Positions 4,594-35,331 of a DNA stretch of 55,254 nucleotides are shown piece after piece. The translations under genes were made by a program, and so were the position numbers. The stretch spans positions 1 through 55,254 of the forward strand of contig CAZXGU010000001.1 in the NCBI GenBank assembly GCA_964640375.1. Reading direction: 5' to 3'. The notes below the pieces were generated by a model. That model ran no database searches, was not told the DNA's origin, and saw only the letters and a program-made list of their open reading frames with translations. This DNA is from an uncultured Sangeribacter sp. Lineage in GTDB: Bacteria > Bacteroidota > Bacteroidia > Bacteroidales > Muribaculaceae. The stretch's first letter is position 1, and every line of letters starts with the position of its first letter.

Positions 4594-6237
4594 TTATATA
4601 TTCATGTTTTTTCGATACTGAGCTGGCGTGATTCCGAACACTTTATTAAAGTGACTGTAATAAGTGGCGCGTCGCACATAGCCACATTCCACTGCTATTG
4701 CATCGATGGTCCAATCTGGATGTTCTTGAATAAGCTTCACGGAATATTCCACTCTAAGTTTATTGATATAGTCGTTGGGATTTAGGCCGGTGAATTTATC
4801 AATCAAAGCCACGATTCTGGCTCTTGATAATCCGCAAACCTCAGCAATGCTATCACGGTTGAAATTCTGATCCTTAAACAAATTGTCACTCATCAGAGTG
4901 TGTTGCATCTTTGTGAAAGTCTCAAAATCCTCTTCATTTCCCTCAGAGAAATCAAAATCCATTTTATTCAACTCTAAAAGTTGGTCCACTCTCTTGGCCG
5001 CAATCTTCTGCTGGCGAACACTCGAACGATAAGCCCGCCATAGAATAAGAAGAATTAATATCACCAAGATTCCAATGCCGATTGCAGAAATCATCCAGAT
5101 ATGTTTCTTTTGCAAAGACACTTTCATATTAAGCAGCTCCATTTCCTTCTCATTGAGAGAAAAGAGAGAAGCCATCTCTTGGGTGCGTAAATTATTCTCT
5201 CGTGCTGTCAAACTGTCTTTGATTAATGCAGCTCTTTGCGCCAGAGAATAAGCTTCCCGAAACCTTCCTAATCCTGCTAAGGCCTTAGAATCAGATTCTA
5301 ACAAACTACGGTAATCATCGTTTATTGTATCCCCCTTTGCAAGAATGGGATATAGTGGGGCAGTAAAATCCATTACAGTCTTCCAATTGGAGGAATCAAG
5401 AAGGTAATCCATGATATAAGCTCTACCAATGGGGCTCGATGCATAGTCTGTTGCCATAAATTTATTGTACGCATCTTTGGCTTCATCCCGTTTTCCGGCC
5501 CTTTCTGCGCAAGAAGCAATCCGAGCGTAGGCGTAGGCTCGCTGTTGATCTGTGAAACCTTCCGGCGCACCTCCTAATTTATCAATCCGTTCAATAATAT
5601 CGAGCCGTTTTCTACCTTCTTCCAATCCCTCGTTAAACTTTTCATCCGTATATAGTTCCACTATCTTTACCCCGTAGGCAGCCGATACATTAGCTAATGT
5701 GCGGACGTTTTTAGAATTTGAGCCCTCGGAGATGATTCTGTCCAAGTATTGATATCCTTGTTTGCGATCGCCCATGGCAAATGAAGTTTTACTCATGGTG
5801 GTGAGGATATTGAAAAGGGCAGCTTCATTATTCAATTTGCGAGCTATCTTCATCGCTTCAGTTGACGATGCTATGCTTCCTTGAAAGTTGCCATAATATG
5901 CCTGGGCTGTAGAAAGAAGTGTAAGAGCATTTAATCGCTCCTTATCATGGTGCGAGATAGAATCGTCTGAAAGAACTTCTCGAGCATATTTTTCTACAAG
6001 TGAAAACATCCTCTTCTCATTATATGCCAAACTCCGAAGCAAGGAAATTTTGTAGGAGGGAAGTGATGACTTTTTCTCACTTTCTATTTTATCGAGAATA
6101 AGCAACACGCTATCGGGAGATTCCACCAATAAATTACGAATTTCTTCTTCCGATGCTACCGATCTCCCGACACCTCTCATTCCTGGAATGTGCATGAACA
6201 GAATTATTATCAATATGAGCAGACGAGTTGTTTTCAT
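4594..6237 (-). CDS. Membrane-anchored TPR-sensor AraC-family transcriptional regulator
   Basis: Likely start MKTTRLL (6237) with signal/TM segment, TPR-like helices, second TM (WMISAIGIGILVILILLILW), AraC C-terminus (DYINKLRV...TIDAIAVECGY...FNKVFGITPAQYR). Confidence 0.9.
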   Translation of the reverse strand: MKTTRLLILIIILFMHIPGMRGVGRSVASEEEIRNLLVESPDSVLLILDKIESEKKSSLPSYKISLLRSLAYNEKRMFSLVEKYAREVLSDDSISHHDKERLNALTLLSTAQAYYGNFQGSIASSTEAMKIARKLNNEAALFNILTTMSKTSFAMGDRKQGYQYLDRIISEGSNSKNVRTLANVSAAYGVKIVELYTDEKFNEGLEEGRKRLDIIERIDKLGGAPEGFTDQQRAYAYARIASCAERAGKRDEAKDAYNKFMATDYASSPIGRAYIMDYLLDSSNWKTVMDFTAPLYPILAKGDTINDDYRSLLESDSKALAGLGRFREAYSLAQRAALIKDSLTARENNLRTQEMASLFSLNEKEMELLNMKVSLQKKHIWMISAIGIGILVILILLILWRAYRSSVRQQKIAAKRVDQLLELNKMDFDFSEGNEEDFETFTKMQHTLMSDNLFKDQNFNRDSIAEVCGLSRARIVALIDKFTGLNPNDYINKLRVEYSVKLIQEHPDWTIDAIAVECGYVRRATYYSHFNKVFGITPAQYRKNMNI

Positions 6238-6333
6238 GGCTGCAAAGTTATAAAAAATTACTTTATGAAAACTATTTGTGGGAAGGAAACTAAAATGAGA
6301 GTGAAAGGACATAAATTATTGATACTCACAGAA

Positions 6334-6454
6334 TAGACAAAAAGAGTACAAAAATGAGTACAAACTTTACAGGCATGTACTCATCAAAAAAGGGAAATAA
6401 GTACAAACATTAGGACTTTTAATTTGACTTATCATAAAGTGAAATATAACTTTG
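6334..6454 (+). promoter_or_regulatory. Promoter of the MACPF operon with upstream (A/G)AGTACAAA repeats, probable AraC sites
   Basis: TTTG (6423-6426)-N20-TAACTTTG (6447-6454); gagtacaaa at 6344 and 6356, aagtacaaa at 6399, inverted tgtactc at 6376. Confidence 0.7.
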
Positions 6455-6485: not shown

Positions 6486-7058
6486 ATGGAAACTAACATT
6501 TCTAAATCTATGAGAAAACTTTTGCTTTTCTTCCTTTTGCTGATTCCGATGTTCGGTTTTACAGCTTGCGGCGATGATAATGACGAGCCTGACACTCCCC
6601 CGACGCAAAATCCCACTGTGGTGAAAGTTGCCACGGTGACTGCTCAGTACAAAATTCTTCTCGGTCAAGCATGGTTTGATTTCTTCGATATTGTAGTTAA
6701 CTACACCTCTGTGGGAGGAGATAAAAAGGTGGTTTTGACAGAAGATATGATGGAGAACTTCACGTTGCCCTATTCTGAATCGCCAAATACTTTTATATGC
6801 TCTATTGTGGCCAAACCAAAAAGCACTCATCCAGAGATTAAAGAGAATGGAAAATACAATTTATCCAACGATATAGAGGCCTCAGTTTTTGGGAAAGATG
6901 CTAACGGAACTGAAATAGATGGTTTCGGCTATATGGGTAGCAATTATTCCGTTTTCCCTGAAGCCTCTGCCAAAGAGTTAAAATCTAAAATGGAAAAAGA
7001 ACGCACTCTCCTTAACTTTTCATATACTTTAGAACCCTCCGACATCAGACAGCAGTAA
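6486..7058 (+). CDS. Hypothetical surface lipoprotein, first gene of the MACPF operon (start may be 6510)
   Basis: Lipobox FTAC followed by acidic GDDNDE export-type signal; beta-rich sequence. Confidence 0.8.
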   Translation: METNISKSMRKLLLFFLLLIPMFGFTACGDDNDEPDTPPTQNPTVVKVATVTAQYKILLGQAWFDFFDIVVNYTSVGGDKKVVLTEDMMENFTLPYSESPNTFICSIVAKPKSTHPEIKENGKYNLSNDIEASVFGKDANGTEIDGFGYMGSNYSVFPEASAKELKSKMEKERTLLNFSYTLEPSDIRQQ

Positions 7059-7064
7059 CAAAAA

Positions 7065-8345
7065 ATGAAGAACAAGATAATAATATTGAAGACGGGATTA
7101 TTCCTGTCTTCACTCTCGGTATTGCTTTCCGGATGCCAAGACAACATAAATTCTGAGGAGAGCTCATATAAAACTGTCTTGAATATAGATGCAGCAAGTG
7201 ATACCTACAATCTTAGCCATAATAATAAACAAGGAACTTGGGAACTAACCTCTTATCCTGAGTGGGCCACTCCTGTCGATAGTTGCGGAAATGTCCAAAC
7301 CGACCTGAAGATTTACTTTGAGAGCAACGGAAGAGGCGAGGATCGCTCCGGCGAGTTGGAAATAACCTATAACGATGGCTCAAAACAAAAAGTCCAGGTT
7401 AATCAGAGCCGTGCAAACGAAAGTTTTCATCTTGAAAGAGCCCAAGGTGTGGGGTGGGGAATGGATGTCGGCAGCTACATGGATAGTCGTGGTCTTACCG
7501 ATCAGATTTTCAATACTGAGAAAATACGTGCTTTCAATAAGAATGCTGTCACATATTCCGTGGGCAATAAGCTAAGTATCCTCTACTTTCAGGGAGAAAG
7601 CATTGACAAAGTGCAACAGTCGCTTACTGCTTCCCTAAATCTTAATGTGAAAATCAGTGCATTCGATGCCACTCTTAATGGAGCCTTCGACAAGACGTCA
7701 ATGAAAGATTCGCAACGTTATTTCTCTTGGATGCGAGGCACATTCCAGAAGAAGCAGGTTACGATGCACATTGATGTGACCGATGCTCAACGCAACAATC
7801 TTTTCACCCATGACTTTGCAATTATGCGTCAGCGCGTCATTGATTCTGAAGGGTCAGAGGAGGCGATTCGAGAGCTAATTGAAAGATATGGCACACATTA
7901 TATATGGAACGCCGGGTTGGGAGGATATATTGATTATTTCTATTCCTTTGTTCAAAGCATGGAGTCGGATAAAATGAATATTAAAGCCGCCTTGCAGTGC
8001 AGCTATGAGAAAAAATTCGGTCTAAAGGCCACTGTGGAATATAACACGGCATTTGAGGCTGCAAATTCGGAGAAAATAGAAAAATTCTTTGTGCGCGGAG
8101 GAGATGCAATGACCCTCACAAACTGTGTGGCCTCAGGAAATATCGGAGAACAGCCCGTGACTGCTTGGCAAACTAAACTTGAAAAGGATGATCAATTCGA
8201 ACTTATCACATTCAGTCTAAGAAGCATCTCATCCCTTTTCCCTAACGACGCACCAACAAGAATAGCAACAAAAATTGATGACTACATCTCCAGAGTGCTG
8301 TATTATAATAATCTACCGCTTACTCGATCGGAAAAGAAACGTTAA
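7065..8345 (+). CDS. BACON + MACPF (perforin-like) lipoprotein 1
   Basis: Lipobox LSGC; BACON-like W...PEW..N....RSGEL......V.Q; GVGWGMDV; MACPF signature YGTHYIWNAGLGG; VRGG. Ends right after the MACPF domain. Confidence 0.88.
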   Translation: MKNKIIILKTGLFLSSLSVLLSGCQDNINSEESSYKTVLNIDAASDTYNLSHNNKQGTWELTSYPEWATPVDSCGNVQTDLKIYFESNGRGEDRSGELEITYNDGSKQKVQVNQSRANESFHLERAQGVGWGMDVGSYMDSRGLTDQIFNTEKIRAFNKNAVTYSVGNKLSILYFQGESIDKVQQSLTASLNLNVKISAFDATLNGAFDKTSMKDSQRYFSWMRGTFQKKQVTMHIDVTDAQRNNLFTHDFAIMRQRVIDSEGSEEAIRELIERYGTHYIWNAGLGGYIDYFYSFVQSMESDKMNIKAALQCSYEKKFGLKATVEYNTAFEAANSEKIEKFFVRGGDAMTLTNCVASGNIGEQPVTAWQTKLEKDDQFELITFSLRSISSLFPNDAPTRIATKIDDYISRVLYYNNLPLTRSEKKR

Positions 8346-8356
8346 ACCTTTAAGAA

Positions 8357-10606
8357 ATGAAAATAAAACTAACCAATATATTAGCCATCATTTCCTTTAC
8401 CATGCTTGCCTTGGGCTGTAAGGATGATATAACTCCGTCGGGAGGGGAACAAGTGACAGATAAGTTGACCGAACAAATCGGTCATTTAGCTGCCTATCAT
8501 AATCTGAGTGTTCCTGGAAGCAAGGGATGGAAAATTGAAGAGACTCCTCTCTGGGCCACTCCTGTAAATAAAGAGGGAGCTGCCGGCTCTCAAATCCGAA
8601 TGTTGATTGAATCAAATATCAATGATTCCGACCGTGAAGGCTGTCTGAAAGTCAGATTAGCCGATAATTCTCTGATAGAATATAATCTTCATCAATACTC
8701 ACGCTTATCCGACGATAACAATGCCAGAGTTAATGAAGAGTATCTTGAGTTGACTCGGGGAGTGGGCTATGCAATTGATGTATTTGGACAAACCGAATTT
8801 GGCACGGAAAAATATGATATGAAATATGAGGTGGTTAATGTTGAGAAGCTTAACCATTACCTCGATTCCATAGGTGAGCCGGATGCCTTCATAGATGAAG
8901 ACCGTTATTATTCAGAATCCAATAGTTTTGTGGGTTCTTCAATTTCAGCGGTTGCTAATAAAATCTCAGTATCAGCTGGCATAGAGGGAGAAATAGGGGC
9001 ATTTAAGGGTTCGTTAAGTGGGTCGTTTGAAGACTCGAGCACAGTCAACGATACTACCGGTTATGCTCTTAAAGAGATAAAACATGTGGTTGGCTCGCGT
9101 TATCTAAGAGCCGGAGTCCTACGCGAGGCATTGGCCAACGGAGGAAAAGATATTTTTACTTCAGATTTCATTTCTAAAGTGGAAGCTATGGGCGACAATC
9201 CTCAGATTGAAGACCTCCGCAGTTTTGTAAATCTTTTCGGCACTCACATCATCGTTTACGGGGAAATAGGAGGTGCCATGCAGTTGGCACTCGAAATGCA
9301 CAGCACCCGGAAGATTTCGGAAAGAGACATTTCAGCAGCTCTTGAAATCACGGCTGGAAAGGCCGTTAGCGGTGGTGCAAATGTTGATATAAAAGATCAG
9401 ACACAGCATTTTGCAAGTTCTTCAAAAATCTCATTCTGTAGTTTTGGGGGCAACAACATAATTGACCCCATATACCCAGGCACCGATTTTAACACTGCCA
9501 TGCAGAATGTGATTACAGCCGAAAACCTTTCTCATTTTGTTGACGGACTCTCTACTAAAGAGAATGCCAAAGTGGTAGATGTTAAACTGATACCGCTCTC
9601 ATCGTTAATTGCCAATGAAAACACAGCCAAGCGGTTGCATGAATATATTGTTAATGACTATCAATTTGAGAAGACAGGAAATCATTCGTTGAAATATGCC
9701 GTGTCAGGCTTCTCAACTCAAGACAACTATTGTGGTTCGCTCTATCTTCCGGAGATTGATGTTAGAATGGAATATTATAGAGAGTCGGTGCCTGAAATTT
9801 CATCCGATAGCCGTTCCACTATTGTCTATTCAGGCACAGGTTATGGCATGAGTTATGATGTTGGCTTCTTCTTAGGTGACGGAAAGCATAAACCGGGAAA
9901 GCTTAGAAAGCAGAGGAATGGTTCCTTCAAGTATGAGCCTCTGGATATCAGTCTTAACCAGATATCAACGCTCTATGTGGATGCTTCCGGCGATTTAACC
10001 CTTGCTCCGTCGGGATATGCTTCAGATTATATTAATAAGAAGTTTGAAAGCCATCCCATGCCTCCTTCAACAGATATTTCCCCTGCACACACTTTAAAAG
10101 AGCTTAGTGAATTTTCTCCTGAGGGATATGATATAAGCGCTCGCACACTCGACCATAATAAATGGTCCTATTTCCCGGCTTTAATGAGGATAGTTGGCCG
10201 AACAGCCGATTATCAGTCAAACAAAGAGATAGTTGATTTTATTAAGACCGGCAAAGCGTGGATTAATATGGAGCTCGAGGGTTTTAGCTGGTTGCAGGGA
10301 GATCCTGAATTTACTGCATACTATTTCAATCGCAACAACTCTGAATGTGGAATCGGGTCTGCATCGATGCCACAGAATTGTGAGGAATTTATGGATAAAA
10401 ATATTATCTATAAGAATGGTAAACTTACCTTGAGATTTCTTATACCTGCCGGAGCCACTTCAATGGCAATGGAGATATTCCCTTATCTCAGTCAGCGTGG
10501 GTGGGGAGATAAGTTTGCAAAAGATAAGAATGGAAATGAAATATGGCCTTCGATGTATCTTACCTATGAAGATGGAGTCAAAGGCGTAACACCACGGTGG
10601 CGATGA
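8357..10606 (+). CDS. BACON + MACPF lipoprotein 2 with roughly 300-aa C-terminal extension
   Basis: Lipobox ALGC; BACON-like segment; GVGYAIDV; FGTHIIVYGEIGG; SFGG; long extra C-terminal region. Confidence 0.88.
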   Translation: MKIKLTNILAIISFTMLALGCKDDITPSGGEQVTDKLTEQIGHLAAYHNLSVPGSKGWKIEETPLWATPVNKEGAAGSQIRMLIESNINDSDREGCLKVRLADNSLIEYNLHQYSRLSDDNNARVNEEYLELTRGVGYAIDVFGQTEFGTEKYDMKYEVVNVEKLNHYLDSIGEPDAFIDEDRYYSESNSFVGSSISAVANKISVSAGIEGEIGAFKGSLSGSFEDSSTVNDTTGYALKEIKHVVGSRYLRAGVLREALANGGKDIFTSDFISKVEAMGDNPQIEDLRSFVNLFGTHIIVYGEIGGAMQLALEMHSTRKISERDISAALEITAGKAVSGGANVDIKDQTQHFASSSKISFCSFGGNNIIDPIYPGTDFNTAMQNVITAENLSHFVDGLSTKENAKVVDVKLIPLSSLIANENTAKRLHEYIVNDYQFEKTGNHSLKYAVSGFSTQDNYCGSLYLPEIDVRMEYYRESVPEISSDSRSTIVYSGTGYGMSYDVGFFLGDGKHKPGKLRKQRNGSFKYEPLDISLNQISTLYVDASGDLTLAPSGYASDYINKKFESHPMPPSTDISPAHTLKELSEFSPEGYDISARTLDHNKWSYFPALMRIVGRTADYQSNKEIVDFIKTGKAWINMELEGFSWLQGDPEFTAYYFNRNNSECGIGSASMPQNCEEFMDKNIIYKNGKLTLRFLIPAGATSMAMEIFPYLSQRGWGDKFAKDKNGNEIWPSMYLTYEDGVKGVTPRWR

Positions 10607-11892
10607 ATAAATATCTGTTTATAATTTTTTCACTACTTTCTATATTTATCTCGGCGTGTGAGAAAGAATCTCACACGCCGGGATTCTCAACTTCTCTTCC
10701 TTCTTATTTAGAGTTGGATGCCAGTTGTCAGGTTTTGGAGATACCCTTGGGAGGAATTGGGAATTGGAGGGCATCAACAGATTGCAAATGGCTCACCGGA
10801 ATAGACACCTTGGGCAAAGAAGGGGAGTCGTGTAGAATATACATCGAGCAAAATGATGGTCCCGCTCTTAGAAAAGGCAAAATGACAGTTTATCCCGAAA
10901 AAGGTGAAGCGGTTGACATATTTTTGGATCAACTCCCCATTGATAGCAATGGATGGGAAGATGTGGTCAAACTCCCGCATAATTTCGGAATAGGTTGGGG
11001 ATATGATGCCAAGACCGAGGTGGCGGATATTTCTGGAGTTAGAGGGCAGATATTTAATGCAGAGGAACTGAAGAAAGTATATAAAAATAATAAAGCATCA
11101 GTTGCCCTAAACAGCACCGGAGTTTCTCAGGAGCTTATCTATGATAATTCAGCAGAAGCAATCTCAAAGAAAATCAGCACAACAGTTTATGGTGAAATTG
11201 ATCTTAAAGCTGCCTCCGTTAAAATAGAAGGAGAGTATGCTCAGCAAATTTCGGAAAAAAAGAATCGCCTGTATGTATGGTATCGCGACTGGCGTCAAGT
11301 GAAAGTTTGCTACATCACCGTTGATATCCGTGATAAAAACAGAGCTCCTCAATGCTTCACCTCCCAATTCTCTAAATGTATTTCAGACGTAGCCAATGGC
11401 AAGATGACTCCGGCTGAATTTGTAAAAACGTATGGCACTCATTTAATCCAACGCTCTTTCTTGGGTGGAAAAATGGATTATTATTTCACAGTTAGCAACG
11501 ACATTAAGGAGAAGGTTGAGACCATCACTCTTACTGTATCGGTAAAATTTTTAGGGATTAAAAAGTCTTCCTCCAGTGTAAAGGAAAACACGTGGATTGA
11601 TATTAAGAAAGACTTTATAGGTAATTTCTATGTGAAAGGAGGAGGCGGTGTTGGTGCTGATGTTTCGGCCTTATTCGCTTTCTATTGCAATCGAGGAGAG
11701 GCGTTGCCAGAAATATACAGCGGAAAAATTGAGGAATGGCAGAAAGTCTTTTCTAATCCAAATTTAGTTAATCCGGAAGATCTCACGCTTGTTAACTTTT
11801 ATGTTCAACCTATATGGGATATAGTTAAGATGCAAGAATCAGAGGCGGCAGAAAAGATAGAGAAGTATATCAGAGAGGAATATTTGAGATGA
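10603..11892 (+). CDS. BACON + MACPF lipoprotein 3
   Basis: ATG 10603 overlaps the upstream stop (ATGA); lipobox ISAC; BACON-like; GIGWGYDA; YGTHLIQRSFLGG; VKGG. Ends after the MACPF domain. Confidence 0.88.
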   Translation: MNKYLFIIFSLLSIFISACEKESHTPGFSTSLPSYLELDASCQVLEIPLGGIGNWRASTDCKWLTGIDTLGKEGESCRIYIEQNDGPALRKGKMTVYPEKGEAVDIFLDQLPIDSNGWEDVVKLPHNFGIGWGYDAKTEVADISGVRGQIFNAEELKKVYKNNKASVALNSTGVSQELIYDNSAEAISKKISTTVYGEIDLKAASVKIEGEYAQQISEKKNRLYVWYRDWRQVKVCYITVDIRDKNRAPQCFTSQFSKCISDVANGKMTPAEFVKTYGTHLIQRSFLGGKMDYYFTVSNDIKEKVETITLTVSVKFLGIKKSSSSVKENTWIDIKKDFIGNFYVKGGGGVGADVSALFAFYCNRGEALPEIYSGKIEEWQKVFSNPNLVNPEDLTLVNFYVQPIWDIVKMQESEAAEKIEKYIREEYLR

Positions 11893-12905
11893 GTTTTTTT
11901 GTGCGAAAGATATTTAATCTAATCTTAATTTTTATCCTACTATTTACAGGCGGATGTTCTGATAATGACCCCGCGCAGTCAACAATTGCCACGAATAAAA
12001 AAGTTATTCTTGTCAGTCCTATTGGAGGATTTGGAGATGCCGGATATAATGACTTGATTATGCGAGGGGTTATGCAGGCTTACAAATCTGCTGGATTCCA
12101 ATTATCAATAATATATCCCTCCGAAGAGGAGGAGGTAAGGAGGTTGATAGAAGAATTTTGCGTTGTGGAAGTTGACTCTCCCCATCTCCTTTTCTTGGCC
12201 GACAGTAATTATAGCGTTTTTTTACCACGTCATTGTTCCTTGCCTGAAAATAAAAAAATACTTGTGTCGGATGTTTCAAGAGAAAATGTGCCGGAAGGAA
12301 TCACATCTTTCAGCATTAGCAGAGCCGGAGTGTATTACCTTGCGGGTCGAATGGCTTCTCCTCATTGTAGCGCAACTATCATAGCCGCTATGCCGGGCGA
12401 TCAACGTCTTGAAGAGGCTATTAGCTCTTTTCAGGAAGGATTCGGGAAGGAGGTGGAGGTGGTCTATTTAGACGAGGATGAGAAAGGGTATAACTCCCCC
12501 GAAAAAGCATATAAGAAGATGGGGGAAATTGATAATTCTTTCGTTATCCCTCTTGCAGGAGGGTCAAACAACGGCATTTATAAATACTCTCGTGAACAAG
12601 ATTTCTGGCTCTCCTTAGTCGCCGGTGCAGATATAGATTGCCAAAAACTGAGCCCAAGGGTACCGTTCTCAGTTGTGATTCATATTGACCGGATAGTAAA
12701 AGATCTGTTAATGGAATGGATAAGTAGCGGTTTTAGAGAGTCGCATTATACTTTTGGGCTGACCAATTCAGGAACGGAGATAATCATTAGTGATGTTTTT
12801 TCAACTTGGTCTAACATCTGGGAGGATTATTATCTTGAAAATGATTATTGGGAGGAAGCGAAATATAAGTATTTTGACGAAGCTATTAGAAAAGATTTAC
12901 TATGA
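11889..12905 (+). CDS. BMP-family (type I periplasmic-binding fold) lipoprotein
   Basis: Lipobox TGGC; GGFGDAGYNDLIMRG; YLAG; PLAGGSNNGI; GADID motifs typical of BMP/PnrA-like proteins; ATGA overlap. Confidence 0.8.
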   Translation: MSFFVRKIFNLILIFILLFTGGCSDNDPAQSTIATNKKVILVSPIGGFGDAGYNDLIMRGVMQAYKSAGFQLSIIYPSEEEEVRRLIEEFCVVEVDSPHLLFLADSNYSVFLPRHCSLPENKKILVSDVSRENVPEGITSFSISRAGVYYLAGRMASPHCSATIIAAMPGDQRLEEAISSFQEGFGKEVEVVYLDEDEKGYNSPEKAYKKMGEIDNSFVIPLAGGSNNGIYKYSREQDFWLSLVAGADIDCQKLSPRVPFSVVIHIDRIVKDLLMEWISSGFRESHYTFGLTNSGTEIIISDVFSTWSNIWEDYYLENDYWEEAKYKYFDEAIRKDLL

Positions 12906-15007
12906 AATTCAAATTTATACTTTTGATATCACTATCATTCCTGTTAATATGTTCCTGCACAGACACTATTCCGGAAGATAAAGGTTCGAATGGGAAAAGC
13001 GTTTGCCTGGCAGTTGTTCTTCCGGGAGGAGAAGAGAAATGGGGGGACGTAGTGAACTGGTGTGTATCAAATCTCCGAAATTCGGGAGATACAGAATTAA
13101 GATTTCCAAGGATTGAGATCGAATGGAAAGATGAAAATGACAGTGATTTAGATGATTATCTTTATTCAGTTTCCCGAAATAATGATATAGATGCCATTAT
13201 CGGGCCATTCTCATCCACAAATGCTCGAAAAGGAGCGGAAGAATGTCGGCGCAGTGGGAAACCGATTCTCCTTCCGATGGCTACATCAGTAGAAGTGCAG
13301 CGACTCTATGCCGGATATGATAATATATGGAATCTTGTTGAAAGCGACTTAACACAGTGTGAGCTATTAATGCTGCAAGCCCGTCTTTATGGGAAAAAAG
13401 AGGTTAGTCTTTTGTCGTGTGACACTGATTATGGGAAAAGTTTCAGCGATTGGTTTTATTATTTAGCTGCGGAGGCCGGAATGAAAGTAGGGGAGATGCT
13501 CACTTATTCTAATGAGGGTGAGCTTCGCAATGACATAGATAAACTAATTGAGGATAACGGGCACTATAACAATGCTCTCATTTTTGTTCCAGACTCTGAT
13601 TCGGATTGTCTTATATTCGCCGACGAATATGAAAATATTGTAAACAAGAATCCAAAAAAGGAATTTCCTCAAGTGTTATGCTCGGATAATATGTTCAACC
13701 CTTCTCTGGTAGAAAAGATGGGAATGAGAAGTTATGAAGGTCTTGCTCCTTCCTCTGTTCCCGAATCCGGGTTTAATGAGGCTTACTATTCTCGTTTTGG
13801 AAGGTACCCAGTGCCCGGGGAAGCCCATGTTTATGATGCCATTCTAATGACAGTATACGCTTTCTTTTATGCCGGTATTAATCAATCCTCACTTAGAGAT
13901 GCCTTACATTCCATAACTTCCGGTAATGAAAAATGGAATTTGAGTTGGCTCCCCGACGATATGACTCTTGCTTTGCGCGAAATTGCCAGAGGCAAAAGAT
14001 TAAATCTTGGAGGAGTGACAGGCGACTGGACTTTCGATAGAAACAATAAGACCAGTGTTTTAAACACCACCTACTGTCATTGGCTCTATTCAAAAGGGGA
14101 ATACAGTATATTAGAATACCTTTCTACTGATGGAGGAGTAAGAACTACCTCCCAAACACAGGTATGGGAAAGAAAAAATTCTGAATTGCAGGAATTAGAC
14201 ACCTCTTCTGTTGAGATTGATTACCCTGCAAAAGAAAATAATTGGGCTTTGGTTATTTCAACTTCTGACGACTGGGCGAATTATCGTCATCAGGCAGATG
14301 CTCTTTCAATTTATCAACTCCTGAAAAAGAGGGGTTTCGACGATGACCATATCCTTTATGTCAGTGAAGATAATATTGCGAATAATCCGGCAAATCTATA
14401 TCCGGGAACGGTGAAGGTGCGCCCCGATGGAGAAAATCTTTATTGGAATGTGAAAGTGGATTATCATTTGAGCCAACTAAAAGTTACCGATTTGGAGAGT
14501 TTGTTGACAGGAAAGAGAAGCATAGATTTTCCGGAAGTAATTGAAAGCGGAGAGAACGACAATATTTTTATCTATTGGTGTGGACATGGAATGAGCAATT
14601 CCTTAGCTTGGGGCGAGAAACTGATGAGCAGTCAATATTTGGCTTATCTTTTTCGAAAGATGAGCGAACAAAAACAGTTCAGAAAGATCTTCTTTGCATT
14701 AGACGCATGTTATAGTGGAACTATAGGTCGAGCATGCGAGGGGATACCAGAAATTTTGGTGATGACAGCTGCCAATCCTTTTGAACCATCCAAGGCTGAC
14801 ATGAAGGATCCTGAGATGGGAATTTGGCTCTCAAACGGATTCACTCGCGCTTTTGAGGAGACACTATCCGAAACTACTGATATTTCTATTCACGATCTTT
14901 ACCATATTCTGGCAAGACATACTGTTGGAAGCCATGTAATGCTCTATAATTATGTAAAATTCGGGAATATGTATGAAAATCGAATGAGTGAATTCTTTCC
15001 CGATTGA
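12902..15007 (+). CDS. Lipoprotein: type I (LIVBP-like) binding domain fused to a C13 (legumain/GPI8-like) peptidase
   Basis: Lipobox ICSC; AIIGPFSS, DYGKSF and YDA motifs; then NWALVISTS..WANYRHQAD, NIFIYWCGHG (His) and LDACYSG (Cys). Confidence 0.9.
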   Translation: MKFKFILLISLSFLLICSCTDTIPEDKGSNGKSVCLAVVLPGGEEKWGDVVNWCVSNLRNSGDTELRFPRIEIEWKDENDSDLDDYLYSVSRNNDIDAIIGPFSSTNARKGAEECRRSGKPILLPMATSVEVQRLYAGYDNIWNLVESDLTQCELLMLQARLYGKKEVSLLSCDTDYGKSFSDWFYYLAAEAGMKVGEMLTYSNEGELRNDIDKLIEDNGHYNNALIFVPDSDSDCLIFADEYENIVNKNPKKEFPQVLCSDNMFNPSLVEKMGMRSYEGLAPSSVPESGFNEAYYSRFGRYPVPGEAHVYDAILMTVYAFFYAGINQSSLRDALHSITSGNEKWNLSWLPDDMTLALREIARGKRLNLGGVTGDWTFDRNNKTSVLNTTYCHWLYSKGEYSILEYLSTDGGVRTTSQTQVWERKNSELQELDTSSVEIDYPAKENNWALVISTSDDWANYRHQADALSIYQLLKKRGFDDDHILYVSEDNIANNPANLYPGTVKVRPDGENLYWNVKVDYHLSQLKVTDLESLLTGKRSIDFPEVIESGENDNIFIYWCGHGMSNSLAWGEKLMSSQYLAYLFRKMSEQKQFRKIFFALDACYSGTIGRACEGIPEILVMTAANPFEPSKADMKDPEMGIWLSNGFTRAFEETLSETTDISIHDLYHILARHTVGSHVMLYNYVKFGNMYENRMSEFFPD

Positions 15008-31956: not shown

Positions 31957-34900
31957 ATGCAACTTTACAGTAAATGGATTGCGGGAGCGATTCTTGGTAG
32001 TTGTGCATTGATGCCGATGTCAGGCTTTGCCGCATCGAACTTCGAGGCCAACCGTACAGACTTCCGTGACGAAACGATCTATTTTGCGATCACCACTCGT
32101 TTTTATGATGGGGATCCAATGAATAATGTTCTATGCTGGGATGGTGTGGAACATCAGAAAGCAAACAATGACCCTGCTTGGCGTGGTGACTTCGCAGGTC
32201 TGATCCAGAAACTTGATTATATCAAGGCTCTTGGATTCACAGCCATCTGGATCACCCCGGTTGTGCAGAATGCATCCGGCTATGACTATCACGGCTATCA
32301 TGCAATGGACTTCTCAAAAGTGGATCTCCGATATGAGAGCCGCACGGAATGGGGATGTGCTGAAGATGTGAAGTTTGAAGATTTCATTAAGGCAGCCCAT
32401 GAGAAGGGTATAAAAGTTATTCTCGATATTGTTCTCCAACATACCGGAAACTTTGGAGAAAATAAATTTTGTAAGCTCTTTGAACGCGATCAGAATATTA
32501 AAAATCAGGCAGATATCGAGTCGTGTTTAATTCCAGATGAAGAAAAACTTGGCGGTCAGTCTTATTGGGATCTTCCTAATGAAGGAGATAGAACTCAATA
32601 TAAGGAGCGTTTCAAGTACATCAAGAACACCGATGGACAAAACCATGATGATAAGAACTATTGGCATCATGTCTCTACTTCATGGAACTGGGATCTCCCC
32701 AACCGTTGGTGGGGGCAGATTGCCGGTGACTGTGTCGATCTAAATACAGAGAATCCGGCAGTGGTGGATTATATTGCCGAATGCTATGAAAAGTTTATAG
32801 CAATGGGTGTGGATGGTTTCCGAATTGATACAACTGGTCATATCGCGCCACTTACCTTCAACTCTGCATTTATTCCAAGATTTACTCAATTTGCTGAGAC
32901 TGAGGAAGGTAAGAAGAATCGTTTAAATCATGGAAGCACTCCTTTCTATATGTTTGGAGAATGCTGTGCTCGTTACGGTTCCGTAATATATAGAGAACAG
33001 CATGTTCTCTCAAGTCATTACTATACTTGGAAATCAGATCCTGCGTTAGTCACTGAATGGAAAAGTTTTTCAGCAGATTGGTGGGCTAATCAGTTTGTAA
33101 AAGAGGGTGCAGAACCTCTTGGAAATATGTTGACATGTGAGAAAGATCCGGGAACGGTTCATAATTCTAAAAATGTCTTCATGCAGAATGGAGCATGGCA
33201 TGAACCTGATTATTCAGAGGCTTCAGGATTCAATGTGATCGACTTCCCGATGCACTATAATTTCAATTCAGCTGAACAAGCTGTGAACATTGCTAAGTCA
33301 GGTGACCATTTTTATAATGATGCATCTTGGAATGTTGTATATGTGGATTCGCATGACTATTGCCCTGGTCCGAATGATGGTGTTCGTTTCACTGGAGGAA
33401 CAGAGCAGTGGGCAGAGAACCTCTCTTTAATGTTCACCTTCCGTGGCATCCCATGTATCTATTATGGTTCAGAGGTTGAATTCCAGAAAGGAAAGACCAT
33501 AGATGAAGGCCCAGCTCTGGCATCTGTTAATTCTGGACGAGCTTATTATGGTGAATATCTGGAGGGAAATGTCAATGCTACTGATTTCGGTGTTTATACT
33601 GCTGATGGAAATGTTTCCAAAACTCTTGATGGAGACTTGGCTCACCATGTTCGCCGTCTCAACCAGATTCGTCAAGCTTGTCCCGCGCTCCGTAAAGGTC
33701 AGTACACTTGGGACGGATGTAGTGCAAACGGTGGTTGGGCTTTCAAGCGTGCCTATAAGGACTCTTATGCATTGGTAGCAATTAACGGTGGTGCTACATT
33801 TTCTAATGTGCCCGCGGGTACATATACAGACCTTGTAACAGGAAAAAAATACAATGGTGGTGGCACTATCACTGTATCTGCCCCCTCAAATAAAGGTCAG
33901 CTCCGTGTTTTAGTAAAGGATTGGACCGGTGAAAAGGTTGGAGATGATGGTAAATTTATGTATGACCAGTCGCCCAAGAGCCATGGTGGAAGTGTGACTT
34001 TCCCTCATAAGGGAACCACTCATTACTACACGAAGGAAGATGCTCCAGGCCCGTCGATTGCCACTGTTAGCTTCTCACCCGCAGGTGGTTCATTCAAGAC
34101 TGAAACACAGTCTGTAACTGTTACCCTTTCAGACGCATCTGTAAGCGGATGGTATCAGGTGGCTGGTCAGAGTCGTGTAAATCTCTCTCCCTCCAACCGC
34201 ACAAGCACTTTCACTATCGGTAACGGTATGAACTTTGGTGAAACCATTACTGTGAACTGGGGTGCAACTGATGCCGAGGGACAACAGAAAACCGGTAGCG
34301 TAACTTACAAGAAAGTTGATCCCAATGCGGTTATAACAGTTTACGTGAAGAGCCCCAACGGTAATGGTAATATCTACGCCTGGGATAATGGCACTCCGAA
34401 AAAAGAGCCATACGGAGCATGGCCCGGTGCGGCAATTTCATCCGGCGAAAGGGTGGTGGTTGGTGACGACACTTATTATGGCTTCATGATGACCGACTGT
34501 GAAACAGTGAATGTGATCTTTAATAATGGTGGCGCTCAGACTGGAAACATAGAAGGTATAACGGAGGATACATATTTTGATTATGATGGCGGCTCAACTG
34601 CTAATAAAATTGAAAATGTGAATCCGATTCCGCAGGCTTCTGTGATTTTCAATCCTAACGGAGGAAACTTCTCTGAGGATGTTATCACTGTAACTGCCAC
34701 TGCCAAGAACGCTACTTCTGCATGGTATAAGATTGGTAACGGTGCTCAGCAGAACTTCTCTAACACAGCCTCGTTCCAAATCGGTAGCGGCATGAGCGAT
34801 GGCGATTCAGTGACAGTAAGCTGGGGGGCTACTAACAATGAAGGCACAACACGCACAGGCAATGTTACGTTCACCAAGAAAATCAATGGTGGTGGTAACG

Positions 34901-35331
34901 ATGAGCCAGAAGGCAACTTGGTGATTTACTATGATAATTCCTTTACTAACTGGAATACCGTTAAGGTTCACTTCTGGGGTGGCTCTGAAGCAACACAATG
35001 GTCGGGTAATGAGATGACAAAACTTCCTTGCGGTCATTACTACTACTCTCTTCCCGAAGGAACAAACGGCCTTGTGTTCAACAATGGATCAGGTGACCAG
35101 ACTAATGATGTAACAACAGTGACTCATAAGGCTCTTTATAAAGGCACAGGAAACCGTAATTTTGAAACGGGAACTCATAGCTGCGCCCCCTCTGGAGTGG
35201 GTTATGTATTCTCAGATGAGGACGCTCCCGCTGAGCTTTACAATCTCCAGGGTGTACGTGTCACTAACCCGGGCCCCGGTATATACATCGCTGTCAAGGG
35301 TAAGAAATCTAAGAAAATAATCATTAGATAA
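31957..35331 (+). CDS. GH13 alpha-amylase with Ig-like and CBM26/CBM25-like modules and T9SS C-terminus
   Basis: Same motifs as the 996-aa paralog (DGFRIDTTGH, GECCAR, VDSHD); two FSPAGG/FNPNGG Ig-like repeats alternating with starch-binding modules; YNLQGVRV..GIYI..KKIIIR. Confidence 0.92.
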   Translation: MQLYSKWIAGAILGSCALMPMSGFAASNFEANRTDFRDETIYFAITTRFYDGDPMNNVLCWDGVEHQKANNDPAWRGDFAGLIQKLDYIKALGFTAIWITPVVQNASGYDYHGYHAMDFSKVDLRYESRTEWGCAEDVKFEDFIKAAHEKGIKVILDIVLQHTGNFGENKFCKLFERDQNIKNQADIESCLIPDEEKLGGQSYWDLPNEGDRTQYKERFKYIKNTDGQNHDDKNYWHHVSTSWNWDLPNRWWGQIAGDCVDLNTENPAVVDYIAECYEKFIAMGVDGFRIDTTGHIAPLTFNSAFIPRFTQFAETEEGKKNRLNHGSTPFYMFGECCARYGSVIYREQHVLSSHYYTWKSDPALVTEWKSFSADWWANQFVKEGAEPLGNMLTCEKDPGTVHNSKNVFMQNGAWHEPDYSEASGFNVIDFPMHYNFNSAEQAVNIAKSGDHFYNDASWNVVYVDSHDYCPGPNDGVRFTGGTEQWAENLSLMFTFRGIPCIYYGSEVEFQKGKTIDEGPALASVNSGRAYYGEYLEGNVNATDFGVYTADGNVSKTLDGDLAHHVRRLNQIRQACPALRKGQYTWDGCSANGGWAFKRAYKDSYALVAINGGATFSNVPAGTYTDLVTGKKYNGGGTITVSAPSNKGQLRVLVKDWTGEKVGDDGKFMYDQSPKSHGGSVTFPHKGTTHYYTKEDAPGPSIATVSFSPAGGSFKTETQSVTVTLSDASVSGWYQVAGQSRVNLSPSNRTSTFTIGNGMNFGETITVNWGATDAEGQQKTGSVTYKKVDPNAVITVYVKSPNGNGNIYAWDNGTPKKEPYGAWPGAAISSGERVVVGDDTYYGFMMTDCETVNVIFNNGGAQTGNIEGITEDTYFDYDGGSTANKIENVNPIPQASVIFNPNGGNFSEDVITVTATAKNATSAWYKIGNGAQQNFSNTASFQIGSGMSDGDSVTVSWGATNNEGTTRTGNVTFTKKINGGGNDEPEGNLVIYYDNSFTNWNTVKVHFWGGSEATQWSGNEMTKLPCGHYYYSLPEGTNGLVFNNGSGDQTNDVTTVTHKALYKGTGNRNFETGTHSCAPSGVGYVFSDEDAPAELYNLQGVRVTNPGPGIYIAVKGKKSKKIIIR

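What the first reader, a model, noticed from the sequence alone, without database searches (positions are those of the whole stretch)
11889..15007. Orphan solute-binding folds, one fused to a bacterial legumain-like peptidase
Seen: two type I binding-protein folds with no transporter partner in the window; one is fused N-terminally to the C13 domain. Known: bacterial C13 enzymes are poorly characterised, and the family includes both proteases and transamidases/ligases (GPI8, plant AEP ligases). Inference: a small-molecule-gated protease (amino acid- or nucleoside-like ligand), or a transpeptidase that re-anchors or ligates MACPF subunits.
Basis: partly seen in the sequence, partly recalled or inferred. 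Interest (0 to 1): 0.7.

Follow-up and report, generated by a model that had tools for sequence, protein, structure and literature searches.

The report
Sensor-linked legumain freeing gut-bacterial pore proteins
A gut bacterium carries a conserved, apparently unstudied gene pair, a small-molecule-binding protein predicted to dock on a sensor domain fused to an asparagine-type protease, and this protease likely cuts neighbouring membrane-anchored proteins, including three pore-forming ones, free of their anchors.

Summary
Observation confirmed. 11889-12905 encodes a PnrA/BMP-fold lipoprotein; 12902-15007 a lipoprotein fusing a LivJ/mGluR-type Venus flytrap (VFT) to an intact legumain (C13) domain lacking legumain's C-terminal prodomain. 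No cognate permease was found. The two genes are a near-obligate pair (56 of 59 loci; 26 of 30 held-out). Both clefts keep most ligand residues, and BMP is predicted to dock on the VFT (0.80 versus best control 0.00). Neighbours are variable lipoproteins, MACPF in 27 of 43 wide loci. Their spacer-payload linkers carry an Asn: acidic-Asn after BACON in 40 of 68 versus 0 of 86 control BACONs (4 of 6 held-out); an unrelated spacer family has Asn in 20 of 20 and 13 of 13. Best reading: a dedicated asparaginyl sheddase/activator, paralleling C11-protease activation of BSAP/CDCL toxins. Ligand gating is plausible but unshown; ligation is disfavoured (Asp147 is Gly in 62 of 62). No paper found. This scan noted the fusion, the BMP pairing and Asn-junction lipoproteins before on other DNA; the MACPF link, its controls and the complex model are added here.

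The parts
4594..6312 (-). Divergent membrane-spanning TPR + AraC-family regulator, candidate controller of the operon
   Evidence: Pfam HTH_18 E 1.6e-14, weak TPR; similar regulators flank several related loci
6447..6454 (+). TAnnTTTG match (Bacteroidetes-type -7 promoter element, consensus recalled) ahead of the operon
   Evidence: a match only, not tested against chance
6486..7058 (+). 190-aa lipoprotein of unknown family; no Asn junction seen; recurs in related loci
   Evidence: no Pfam hit; homologues
7065..8345 (+). BACON-MACPF lipoprotein M1 (426 aa); short linker without acidic-Asn; subtype ends in a conserved TR[SAV] motif near the C-terminus
   Evidence: Pfam MACPF + BACON
8357..10606 (+). 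BACON-MACPF lipoprotein M2 (749 aa) with long C-terminal region
   Evidence: Pfam MACPF; BACON by own profile
8708..8722 (+). M2 linker SDDNN: predicted cleavage site after Asn121 (or Asn122)
   Evidence: meets the strict motif rule; coordinates
10597..11892 (+). BACON-MACPF lipoprotein M3 (431 aa)
   Evidence: Pfam MACPF; BACON by own profile
10939..10953 (+). M3 linker IDSNG: weaker candidate cleavage site after Asn118
   Evidence: meets only the loose rule; coordinates
11889..12905 (+). BMP/PnrA-fold lipoprotein (Cys23), predicted co-receptor that docks on the VFT
   Evidence: adjacent to the fusion in 56 of 59 loci
12902..15007 (+). VFT-C13 fusion lipoprotein (Cys19, 701 aa)
12992..14161 (+). 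Venus flytrap domain (aa 31-420); S105, T128, D149, Y177, D262 form the amino-acid backbone-binding signature
14231..15004 (+). C13 catalytic domain (aa 444-701): His562 (14585-14587), Cys603 (14708-14710); S1 residues R462, H463, S630, N645; no C-terminal prodomain

Best explanation
The 701-aa lipoprotein is a legumain-type cysteine protease fused to a Venus flytrap domain, the BMP lipoprotein next to it is predicted to bind that flytrap domain, and the protease likely cuts co-encoded lipoproteins after a linker asparagine so that their payloads (here two of the three MACPF pore-forming domains) would be released from their membrane anchors. Shown: the folds, the intact His/Cys dyad and S1 pocket, the absence of legumain's own C-terminal inhibitory domain, the near-obligate gene pair, the conserved clefts, and the Asn junction in neighbours but not in control BACON proteins. 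Predicted: the BMP-VFT complex, with the VFT across the mouth of the BMP cleft. Inferred: surface location (acidic residues after the lipidated Cys), cleavage at the Asn, release or activation of MACPF as in C11-activated BSAP/CDCL toxins, and control of protease activity by a small molecule (amino-acid-like for the VFT, nucleoside-like for BMP); the last step is the weakest (about 0.4).
For: Catalytic H562 and C603 in 62 of 62, R462 62/62, H463 61/62, S630 62/62, position 645 N56/D6, matching legumain's Arg44/His45/Ser216/Asp231 pocket (alignment; PMC4357240 passages). Strict acidic-Asn rule met by 40 of 68 non-redundant BACONs in C13 loci, 0 of 86 control BACONs, shuffled tails mean 8.1, max 17 of 2000 shuffles; Asn lies 9 residues after the BACON end in 27 of 40 and is followed mostly by A/G/S; held-out 4 of 6. 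Unrelated spacer family F0: Asn in 20 of 20 and 13 of 13 new rows. BACON + acidic-Asn + short Cys-rich tails also occur next to the protease. MACPFs from genomes without the fusion lack the motif; two have TRA/TRS instead. Full BACON-MACPF matches below E 1e-40 in 13 of 401 family genomes, 11 of them among the 28 fusion carriers. Complex: ipSAE 0.80, best of 3 controls 0.00, runs share at least 93% of contacts, partner pLDDT at least 84; the mark was reached by 116 of 157 solved complexes and 2 of 215 mismatched pairs, counts holding only roughly as own alignments were used. Precedent: C11 proteases cut BSAP-1 at R38 (10.64898/2026.08.05.742979, passages) and CDCLs after TR/TK (PMC11169675, passages).
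Against: The motif rule was written after seeing the data; MACPF rows are related, so counts overstate independence; most control BACONs are not MACPF proteins, and only 3 BACON-MACPF controls from fusion-negative genomes were in hand (L204, L218, L219), of which L204 keeps a weaker DYNG. 28 of 68 BACONs in C13 loci fail the strict rule, including window M1 and M3. The genome co-occurrence tests are partly circular (profiles built from C13 loci). The F0 Asn could be a structural residue of that fold. Many loci have no BACON or F0 neighbour, so substrates there are unknown. The relative position of VFT and protease is not resolved (pTM 0.61). The window's BMP deviates at some conserved sites (D128 for E, I264 for K) and PnrA Asp27 has no counterpart.
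Confidence: 0.6

Rival explanations
1. The protease is a dedicated asparaginyl sheddase as above but is constitutive; the VFT and BMP are a scaffold, chaperone or substrate-docking unit rather than a small-molecule switch.
For: No sensor-active-site contact is modelled; the predicted BMP interface lies on the VFT only; the signature is incomplete in 7 of 61 VFTs; BMP is missing beside some intact fusions (3 of 59; 4 of 30).
Against: Cleft residues of both domains are far better conserved than a scaffold needs (S105 56/61, D149 61/61, Y177 60/61, D262 57/61; BMP Y53 46/46, D248 45/46); the enzyme lacks any other evident inhibitory domain.
Confidence: 0.2
2. The enzyme is a transpeptidase/ligase (GPI8- or butelase-like) that transfers the Asn-ended or Asn-released part to another protein or anchor.
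For: Structural match to PIG-K (Z 32.6) and OaAEP1 (Z 33.9) is about as good as to legumain (Z 35.1); GPI8 also has Gly before the catalytic His (recalled, not checked in a call); the same Asn junction would serve transpeptidation.
Against: Asp147 is Gly in 62 of 62 and D147S human legumain cannot ligate cystatin E (PMC8491156, passages); no acceptor, no GPI-transamidase partner genes and no C-terminal sorting tail were seen in the gene runs.
Confidence: 0.1
3. The pair is a nutritional or host-directed surface protease with a captured binding protein; the neighbouring lipoproteins share the locus by chance or co-regulation and their Asn motif is structural.
For: Cargo differs widely (lipases, sulfatase, phytase-like, LRR proteins); the fusion exists in other phyla; MACPF presence changes at least 5 times on a quick tree.
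Against: 0 of 86 control BACONs carry the motif; several unrelated neighbour families place an Asn at the same kind of domain boundary; no permease for uptake.
Confidence: 0.1

Closest known systems
Mammalian legumain / asparaginyl endopeptidase (MEROPS C13, clan CD; PDB 4aw9)
   Same: Fold (Z 35.1, rmsd 1.8), about 30% identity, His-Cys dyad, Asn42, Arg44, His45, Ser216 equivalents.
   Different: No activation peptide or LSAM domain; N-terminal lipid anchor and VFT instead; Asp147 is Gly, Glu190 is Tyr/Phe, Asp231 is mostly Asn, Tyr217 is mostly Lys; by inference suited to neutral pH and acidic P2-P3 residues.
GPI transamidase subunit GPI8/PIG-K and plant peptide asparaginyl ligases
   Same: Same family and fold (Z 32.6 and 33.9).
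   Different: No partner subunits or acceptor seen; lower sequence scores than legumain except yeast-type 9ub7; ligation untested.
C11 (fragipain/DpnB)-activated Bacteroidales pore-forming toxins: BSAP-1, CDCLs
   Same: Lipoprotein MACPF-superfamily proteins that need N-terminal cleavage by a surface clan CD protease; multi-component loci; 16% of BSAP representatives have a BACON domain (PMC12853789, passages).
   Different: Here the protease is C13, co-encoded in the same operon, predicted to cut after Asn rather than Arg/Lys, and carries sensor domains; toxicity, target and immunity are not shown.
PnrA/TmpC, BmpD (BMP family nucleoside-binding lipoproteins) and Med (2hqb)
   Same: Fold (Z 26.6, 26.4, 24.8), stacking aromatics and most polar cleft residues.
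   Different: No ABC permease; predicted partner is a protease's VFT. Med's role as a kinase co-receptor is recalled, not checked.
LivJ/LivK and class C GPCR Venus flytraps (mGluR1)
   Same: Fold (Z 32.5 to 3td9) and the S/T/D/Y/D amino-acid signature.
   Different: Fused to a protease, not to a receptor, and not serving a transporter; predicted to pair with a BMP-type protein.
MARTX cysteine protease domain (C80)
   Same: A clan CD protease switched on by a small molecule (InsP6) that releases effector domains (PMC4357240, passages): works like the proposed mechanism.
   Different: Different family, acts in cis in the host cytosol, no binding-protein domains.

Membership tests
Peptidase family C13 (legumain) | Pfam PF01650 above cut-off and legumain fold | tested here: met
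   169.9 bits vs cut-off 22.8; Z 35.1 to 4aw9
Peptidase family C13 (legumain) | His-Gly ... Ala-Cys catalytic dyad | tested here: met
   H562, C603 in 62 of 62; alignment
Peptidase family C13 (legumain) | S1 pocket Arg44/His45/Ser216/Asp231 | tested here: inconclusive
   three of four kept; Asp231 is Asn in 56 of 62 including this protein
Eukaryotic pro-legumain | C-terminal activation peptide and LSAM domain | tested here: not met
   protein ends with the catalytic domain at 701
Peptidase family C13 (legumain) | Cleavage after Asn/Asp | not testable with these tools
   inferred from pocket and neighbour motifs
Legumain-type ligase | Asp/succinimide-147 before the catalytic His | tested here: not met
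   Gly in 62 of 62; role from PMC8491156 passages
GPI8/PIG-K transamidase | Partner subunits and acceptor anchor | tested here: inconclusive
   none in co-directional gene runs; genome not searched for them
LivJ/mGluR-type amino-acid-binding VFT | Type I fold and backbone-binding S165/T188/D208/Y236/D318 signature | tested here: met
   Z 32.5; alignment to mGluR1 covers the first four, the fifth via LivK/LivJ; complete in 54 of 61; S165, T188, D208, D318 named in PMC5372683 passages, Y236 recalled
BMP/PnrA family | Fold and nucleoside-binding cleft | tested here: inconclusive
   fold met; F36, F186, N37, D108, D238 positions kept, D27 lost, K260 in 21 of 46; D27 and F186 from PMC7093131 passages, other numbers recalled
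ABC-transporter solute-binding protein | Cognate permease and ATPase genes | tested here: not met
   none in locus runs; PF02653 in 0 of 5 same-family carriers (own genome 82.6% complete)
BSAP antibacterial MACPF toxins | Lipoprotein with MACPF domain and signature | tested here: met
   Pfam MACPF above cut-off for all three; lipobox and [YF]GTH-x7-GG; M2 weak to BSAP5a_fam, far below cut-off
BSAP antibacterial MACPF toxins | Killing of related strains through a receptor-specific pore | not testable with these tools
   needs overlay and pore assays

The most novel reading that the evidence does not exclude
A two-input, small-molecule-gated surface sheddase: a BMP lipoprotein and an mGluR-like flytrap form a heterodimeric receptor that switches on a bacterial legumain when an amino acid and/or nucleoside is present, releasing a complement-like multi-component MACPF pore and other swappable payloads (Cys-rich peptides, enzymes) from Asn-ended lipoprotein tethers. 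This would be a metabolite-triggered secretion-by-cleavage system with no described counterpart.
Probability: 0.3. Interest if true: 0.88.

Novelty: new variant of a known kind. Interest (0 to 1): 0.72.

Why it matters
Bacterial C13 enzymes have had no assigned substrates that I could find in print. This locus family offers a protease, a predicted cleavage motif in two or more unrelated neighbour families, and a predicted receptor complex, all testable with a few purified proteins. It would add an Asn-specific, operon-encoded route to the known Arg-specific C11 route for maturing Bacteroidales pore-forming proteins, give the BACON domain of these MACPFs a role as a cleavable tether, and possibly show how gut bacteria tie release of antagonistic or host-facing proteins to metabolites. 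A prodomain-free legumain predicted to work at neutral pH with an acidic-Asn motif could also be a useful protein-engineering tool.

Tried and rejected
Transporter role: no permease nearby or PF02653 in 5 same-family carriers. Obligate MACPF link: rejected, MACPF is absent from 16 of 43 wide loci and present in only 4 of 32 held-out loci. Degenerate clefts: rejected. Direct VFT-active-site contact: not resolved by the single-chain model. Plasmid carriage: no match in the plasmid collection. Generic sigma-70 promoter and terminator scans were at chance level (30 vs 23.2 +/- 5.1; 9 vs 7.2 +/- 2.8). The 190-aa lipoprotein could not be assigned (no Pfam; the atlas gave no result). F0 and BACON-tail families have no Pfam hit. 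The primary legumain structure paper was not held; a review was used. GPI8's residue before the catalytic His could not be displayed. A covariation between residue 631/645 and motif type (K/N with acidic-Asn, F or W/D with GGN/GAN) was seen by eye but not tested. The careful tree did not finish; only the quick tree was read, with 17 narrow-flank loci left out. Supplements of the papers were not read; the BSAP tables of PMC12853789 may list MACPFs from such loci.
Full report
Observation. The window is from a Bacteroidales genome (G000, 82.6% complete; relatives are titled Bacteroidales). Six co-directional genes run from 6486 to 15007 with gaps of 6, 11, -10, -4 and -4 bases, opposite a TPR-AraC regulator: a 190-aa lipoprotein, three MACPF lipoproteins, a 338-aa lipoprotein and a 701-aa lipoprotein. 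All six have a lipobox Cys. The 701-aa protein has Pfam ANF_receptor and Peptidase_C13 matches; its model matches legumain at Z 35.1 over 444-701 and LivK at Z 32.5 over 33-418. The 338-aa protein has no Pfam hit but its profile and model match the BMP/PnrA family (7x0r E 4.7e-18; 2fqw Z 26.6). No PF02653 permease was found in G000 or in 4 of 4 same-family carriers, while 12 of 14 control genomes rang; one carrier of another family has it elsewhere.

Distribution. 289 full-length homologues among 7994 candidates scored. The fusion is patchy: 6 of 401 order genomes, 28 of 401 own-family genomes, 31 of 226 genomes of a second family; these are lower bounds, since one genome had a further copy that was not listed. 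Among the best 150 library hits to the C13 profile, 125 of 125 proteins of 630 aa or more also carry the VFT; names include Myxococcales, Deltaproteobacteria and Treponema. The operon is slightly AT-rich (GC 0.41 vs 0.44; GC3 0.37-0.44 vs median 0.47), weakly suggestive of transfer.

The core pair. Loci were reduced to 76 clusters at 90% identity, 75 loci. BMP lies within 1.5 kb in 56 of 59 loci with enough flank; MACPF lies within 9 kb in 27 of 43 wide loci. In 33 further loci fetched later (one lacked the C13 part at a contig end), BMP was present in 26 of 30 with enough flank and MACPF in 4 of 32. So BMP + fusion is the core and MACPF is one cargo; other neighbours are mostly lipoproteins of unknown families, plus lipases, a sulfatase and others. 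On a quick tree of 44 fusions (17 narrow-flank loci left out) MACPF presence needs 7 changes, 5 forced by well-supported branches. Lipobox Cys is kept in 46 of 46 BMPs and 65 of 67 fusions, with two or more acidic residues just after it in 39 and 55, as in the Bacteroidota surface-export signal (consensus recalled).

Protease. H562 and C603 are invariant in 62 rows; N460 59, R462 62, H463 61, S630 62. Against legumain: Asp231 is Asn in 56 and Asp in 6; Asp147 is Gly in 62; Glu190 is Tyr or Phe in 62; Tyr217 is Lys in 54. A review (PMC4357240, passages) names Arg44, His45, Ser216, Asp231 as the Asn/Asp pocket, with Asp231 protonated to accept Asp, and the C-terminal domain as the inhibitor; PMC8491156 (passages) shows Glu190 damps the catalytic Cys and that D147S cannot ligate cystatin E. 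I infer an Asn-preferring (perhaps Asx) hydrolase active near neutral pH, with K631 possibly favouring acidic P2/P3 residues. It has no C-terminal prodomain, so any control must come from elsewhere.

Sensors. VFT residues S105, T128, D149 and Y177 align with the mGluR1 stretch holding S165, T188, D208 and Y236 (S165, T188, D208, D318 are named in PMC5372683 passages, Y236 and the register are recalled); D262 aligns with the acidic residue of LivK/LivJ. All five are present in 54 of 61. In BMP, Y53 (46/46), N54 (36/46), E/D128 (45/46), aromatic 201 (45/46) and D248 (45/46) match PnrA F36, N37, D108, F186, D238; D27 is lost and K260 is kept in 21 of 46, Ile here (D27 and F186 from PMC7093131 passages, others recalled). 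Co-folding BMP (33-338) with the fusion (30-701) scored 0.80 against a best control of 0.00; runs agree in at least 93% of contacts, partner pLDDT at least 84; that mark was reached by 116 of 157 solved complexes and 2 of 215 mismatched pairs, roughly applicable here. It supports binding and does not show it. The interface uses the VFT (162-164, 287-298, 344-356, 395-424) and both BMP lobes at the cleft rim (46-82, 202-254), so it could report BMP closure, and it reaches the segment before the linker to the protease. BMP interface residues are somewhat more conserved than average (0.55 vs 0.49), VFT ones are not (0.46 vs 0.50). No contact with the active site was listed, and the single-chain model leaves the domain arrangement open (pTM 0.61).

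Candidate substrates. An earlier AI note on other DNA (e1-3159141) described Gly-Gly-Asn junctions in lipoproteins beside such a protease; I used it as a lead. In 76 MACPF lipoproteins from these loci the BACON-MACPF linker mostly holds acidic residues ending in Asn, across subtypes about 20% identical; some subtypes have SR/TR motifs or a short linker instead. With a BACON profile cut before the linker, a rule (Asn 4-14 residues after the BACON end, two or more D/E among the four before it; written after seeing the data) was met by 40 of 68 non-redundant BACONs in C13 loci and 0 of 86 controls from 67 other loci and the rest of G000; a loose rule gave 49 and 13; shuffled tails gave 8.1 +/- 2.5, maximum 17. 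The Asn is 9 residues from the BACON end in 27 of 40 and is followed by A, G or S in 28 of 40. In the later loci, 10 BACONs were found, 4 dropped as near-copies, and 4 of the remaining 6 met the rule; the other two have an Asn in the linker. Of 21 control loci with MACPF-type hits from fusion-negative genomes, none shows the motif before the MACPF start; two have TRA/TRS, and the orphan L204 has DYNG (read by eye). In the window M2 meets the strict rule (SDDNN, 8708-8722), M3 only the loose one (IDSNG, 10939-10953), M1 neither. A second, unrelated family (F0) has W-P-x-Asn at the end of its N-terminal domain in 20 of 20 rows (17 of 21 members of 290-440 aa plus 3 added) and 13 of 13 later rows (not de-duplicated against the first set); its spacer was found in 6 of 32 fusion-positive and 0 of 128 fusion-negative genomes, but all hits but one were profile members. 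BACON + acidic-Asn + short Cys-rich tails and a third spacer family with Asn + Cys-rich tails also flank the protease. Strong full BACON-MACPF matches occur in 13 of 401 family genomes, 11 of them fusion carriers, again partly circular.

Mechanism. Most likely the fusion is a surface asparaginyl sheddase for its own operon: lipoproteins are exported with a spacer, and the protease cuts at the Asn to free or activate the payload. This parallels C11 proteases, which cut BSAP-1 at R38 (10.64898/2026.08.05.742979, passages) and CDCLs after TR/TK (PMC11169675, passages); the TR/SR motifs in Asn-less subtypes suggest those members use the C11 route. The BMP-VFT unit likely regulates the cut in response to a metabolite, as InsP6 does for MARTX CPD (PMC4357240, passages), but this is inference. 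Rivals: constitutive sheddase with scaffold domains (0.2), transpeptidase (0.1), unrelated nutritional protease (0.1).

Known or new. Searches for MACPF + Bacteroidales + C13 (the 'C13' in the paper read was a symmetry label), bacterial legumain/peptidase C13 and asparaginyl endopeptidase with Bacteroidales or MACPF listed no paper on this system; the library lacks most subscription papers. PMC2954219 (passages) describes a B. thetaiotaomicron MACPF cluster without such a protease; PMC12853789 (passages) notes BACON-MACPF BSAPs with unknown BACON role. This scan's earlier notes already report the fusion, the BMP pairing and Asn-junction lipoproteins on other DNA; they are unchecked AI notes, not support. 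Verdict: a real, conserved, apparently undescribed variant of protease-matured Bacteroidales lipoprotein payload systems; interest 0.72.

Noticed in passing
window:15322-21240 (+): 1972-aa secreted protein with Spi inhibitor, peptidase C10 and BspA-type LRR domains directly downstream; C10 genes also lie near a few related loci (family F8), not conserved as part of the operon.
   Followed up: no
window:21401-24920 (-): Two further BspA-type LRR surface proteins.
   Followed up: no
window:26993-29983 (-) and 31957-35331 (+): Two alpha-amylases with CBM26 starch-binding modules.
   Followed up: no
window:8319-8330 (+): M1-subtype MACPFs end in a conserved V/L-T-R-S/A/V motif a few residues before the C-terminus, like C11/gingipain sites but at the C-terminal end.
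   Followed up: partly
L211:4633-7863: Four tandem BACON lipoproteins with a nearly identical acidic-Asn linker and different short CxxC...CxxC tails, next to a fusion gene interrupted by a stop codon.
   Followed up: partly
L159:5731-10077: Alternating array of two small lipoprotein families (F7, F2) upstream of BMP; F2 members have Asn followed by Cys-rich tails.
   Followed up: partly
L142, L166-L169: Lipase-like lipoproteins follow the fusion and have GGN/GAN motifs; the proteases there have Phe631 and Asp645 instead of Lys and Asn.
   Followed up: no
L204:8191-10647: Orphan BACON-MACPF in a 99% complete genome without a detected fusion; its linker motif is weakened to DYNG.
   Followed up: partly
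L206, L208, L209, L210: A separate ~700-aa lipoprotein family with an Ig-like domain and a distant MACPF match, single genes without protease or Asn motif.
   Followed up: no
window:51093-53633 (+): 846-aa protein with an immune inhibitor A (M6) peptidase domain.
   Followed up: no
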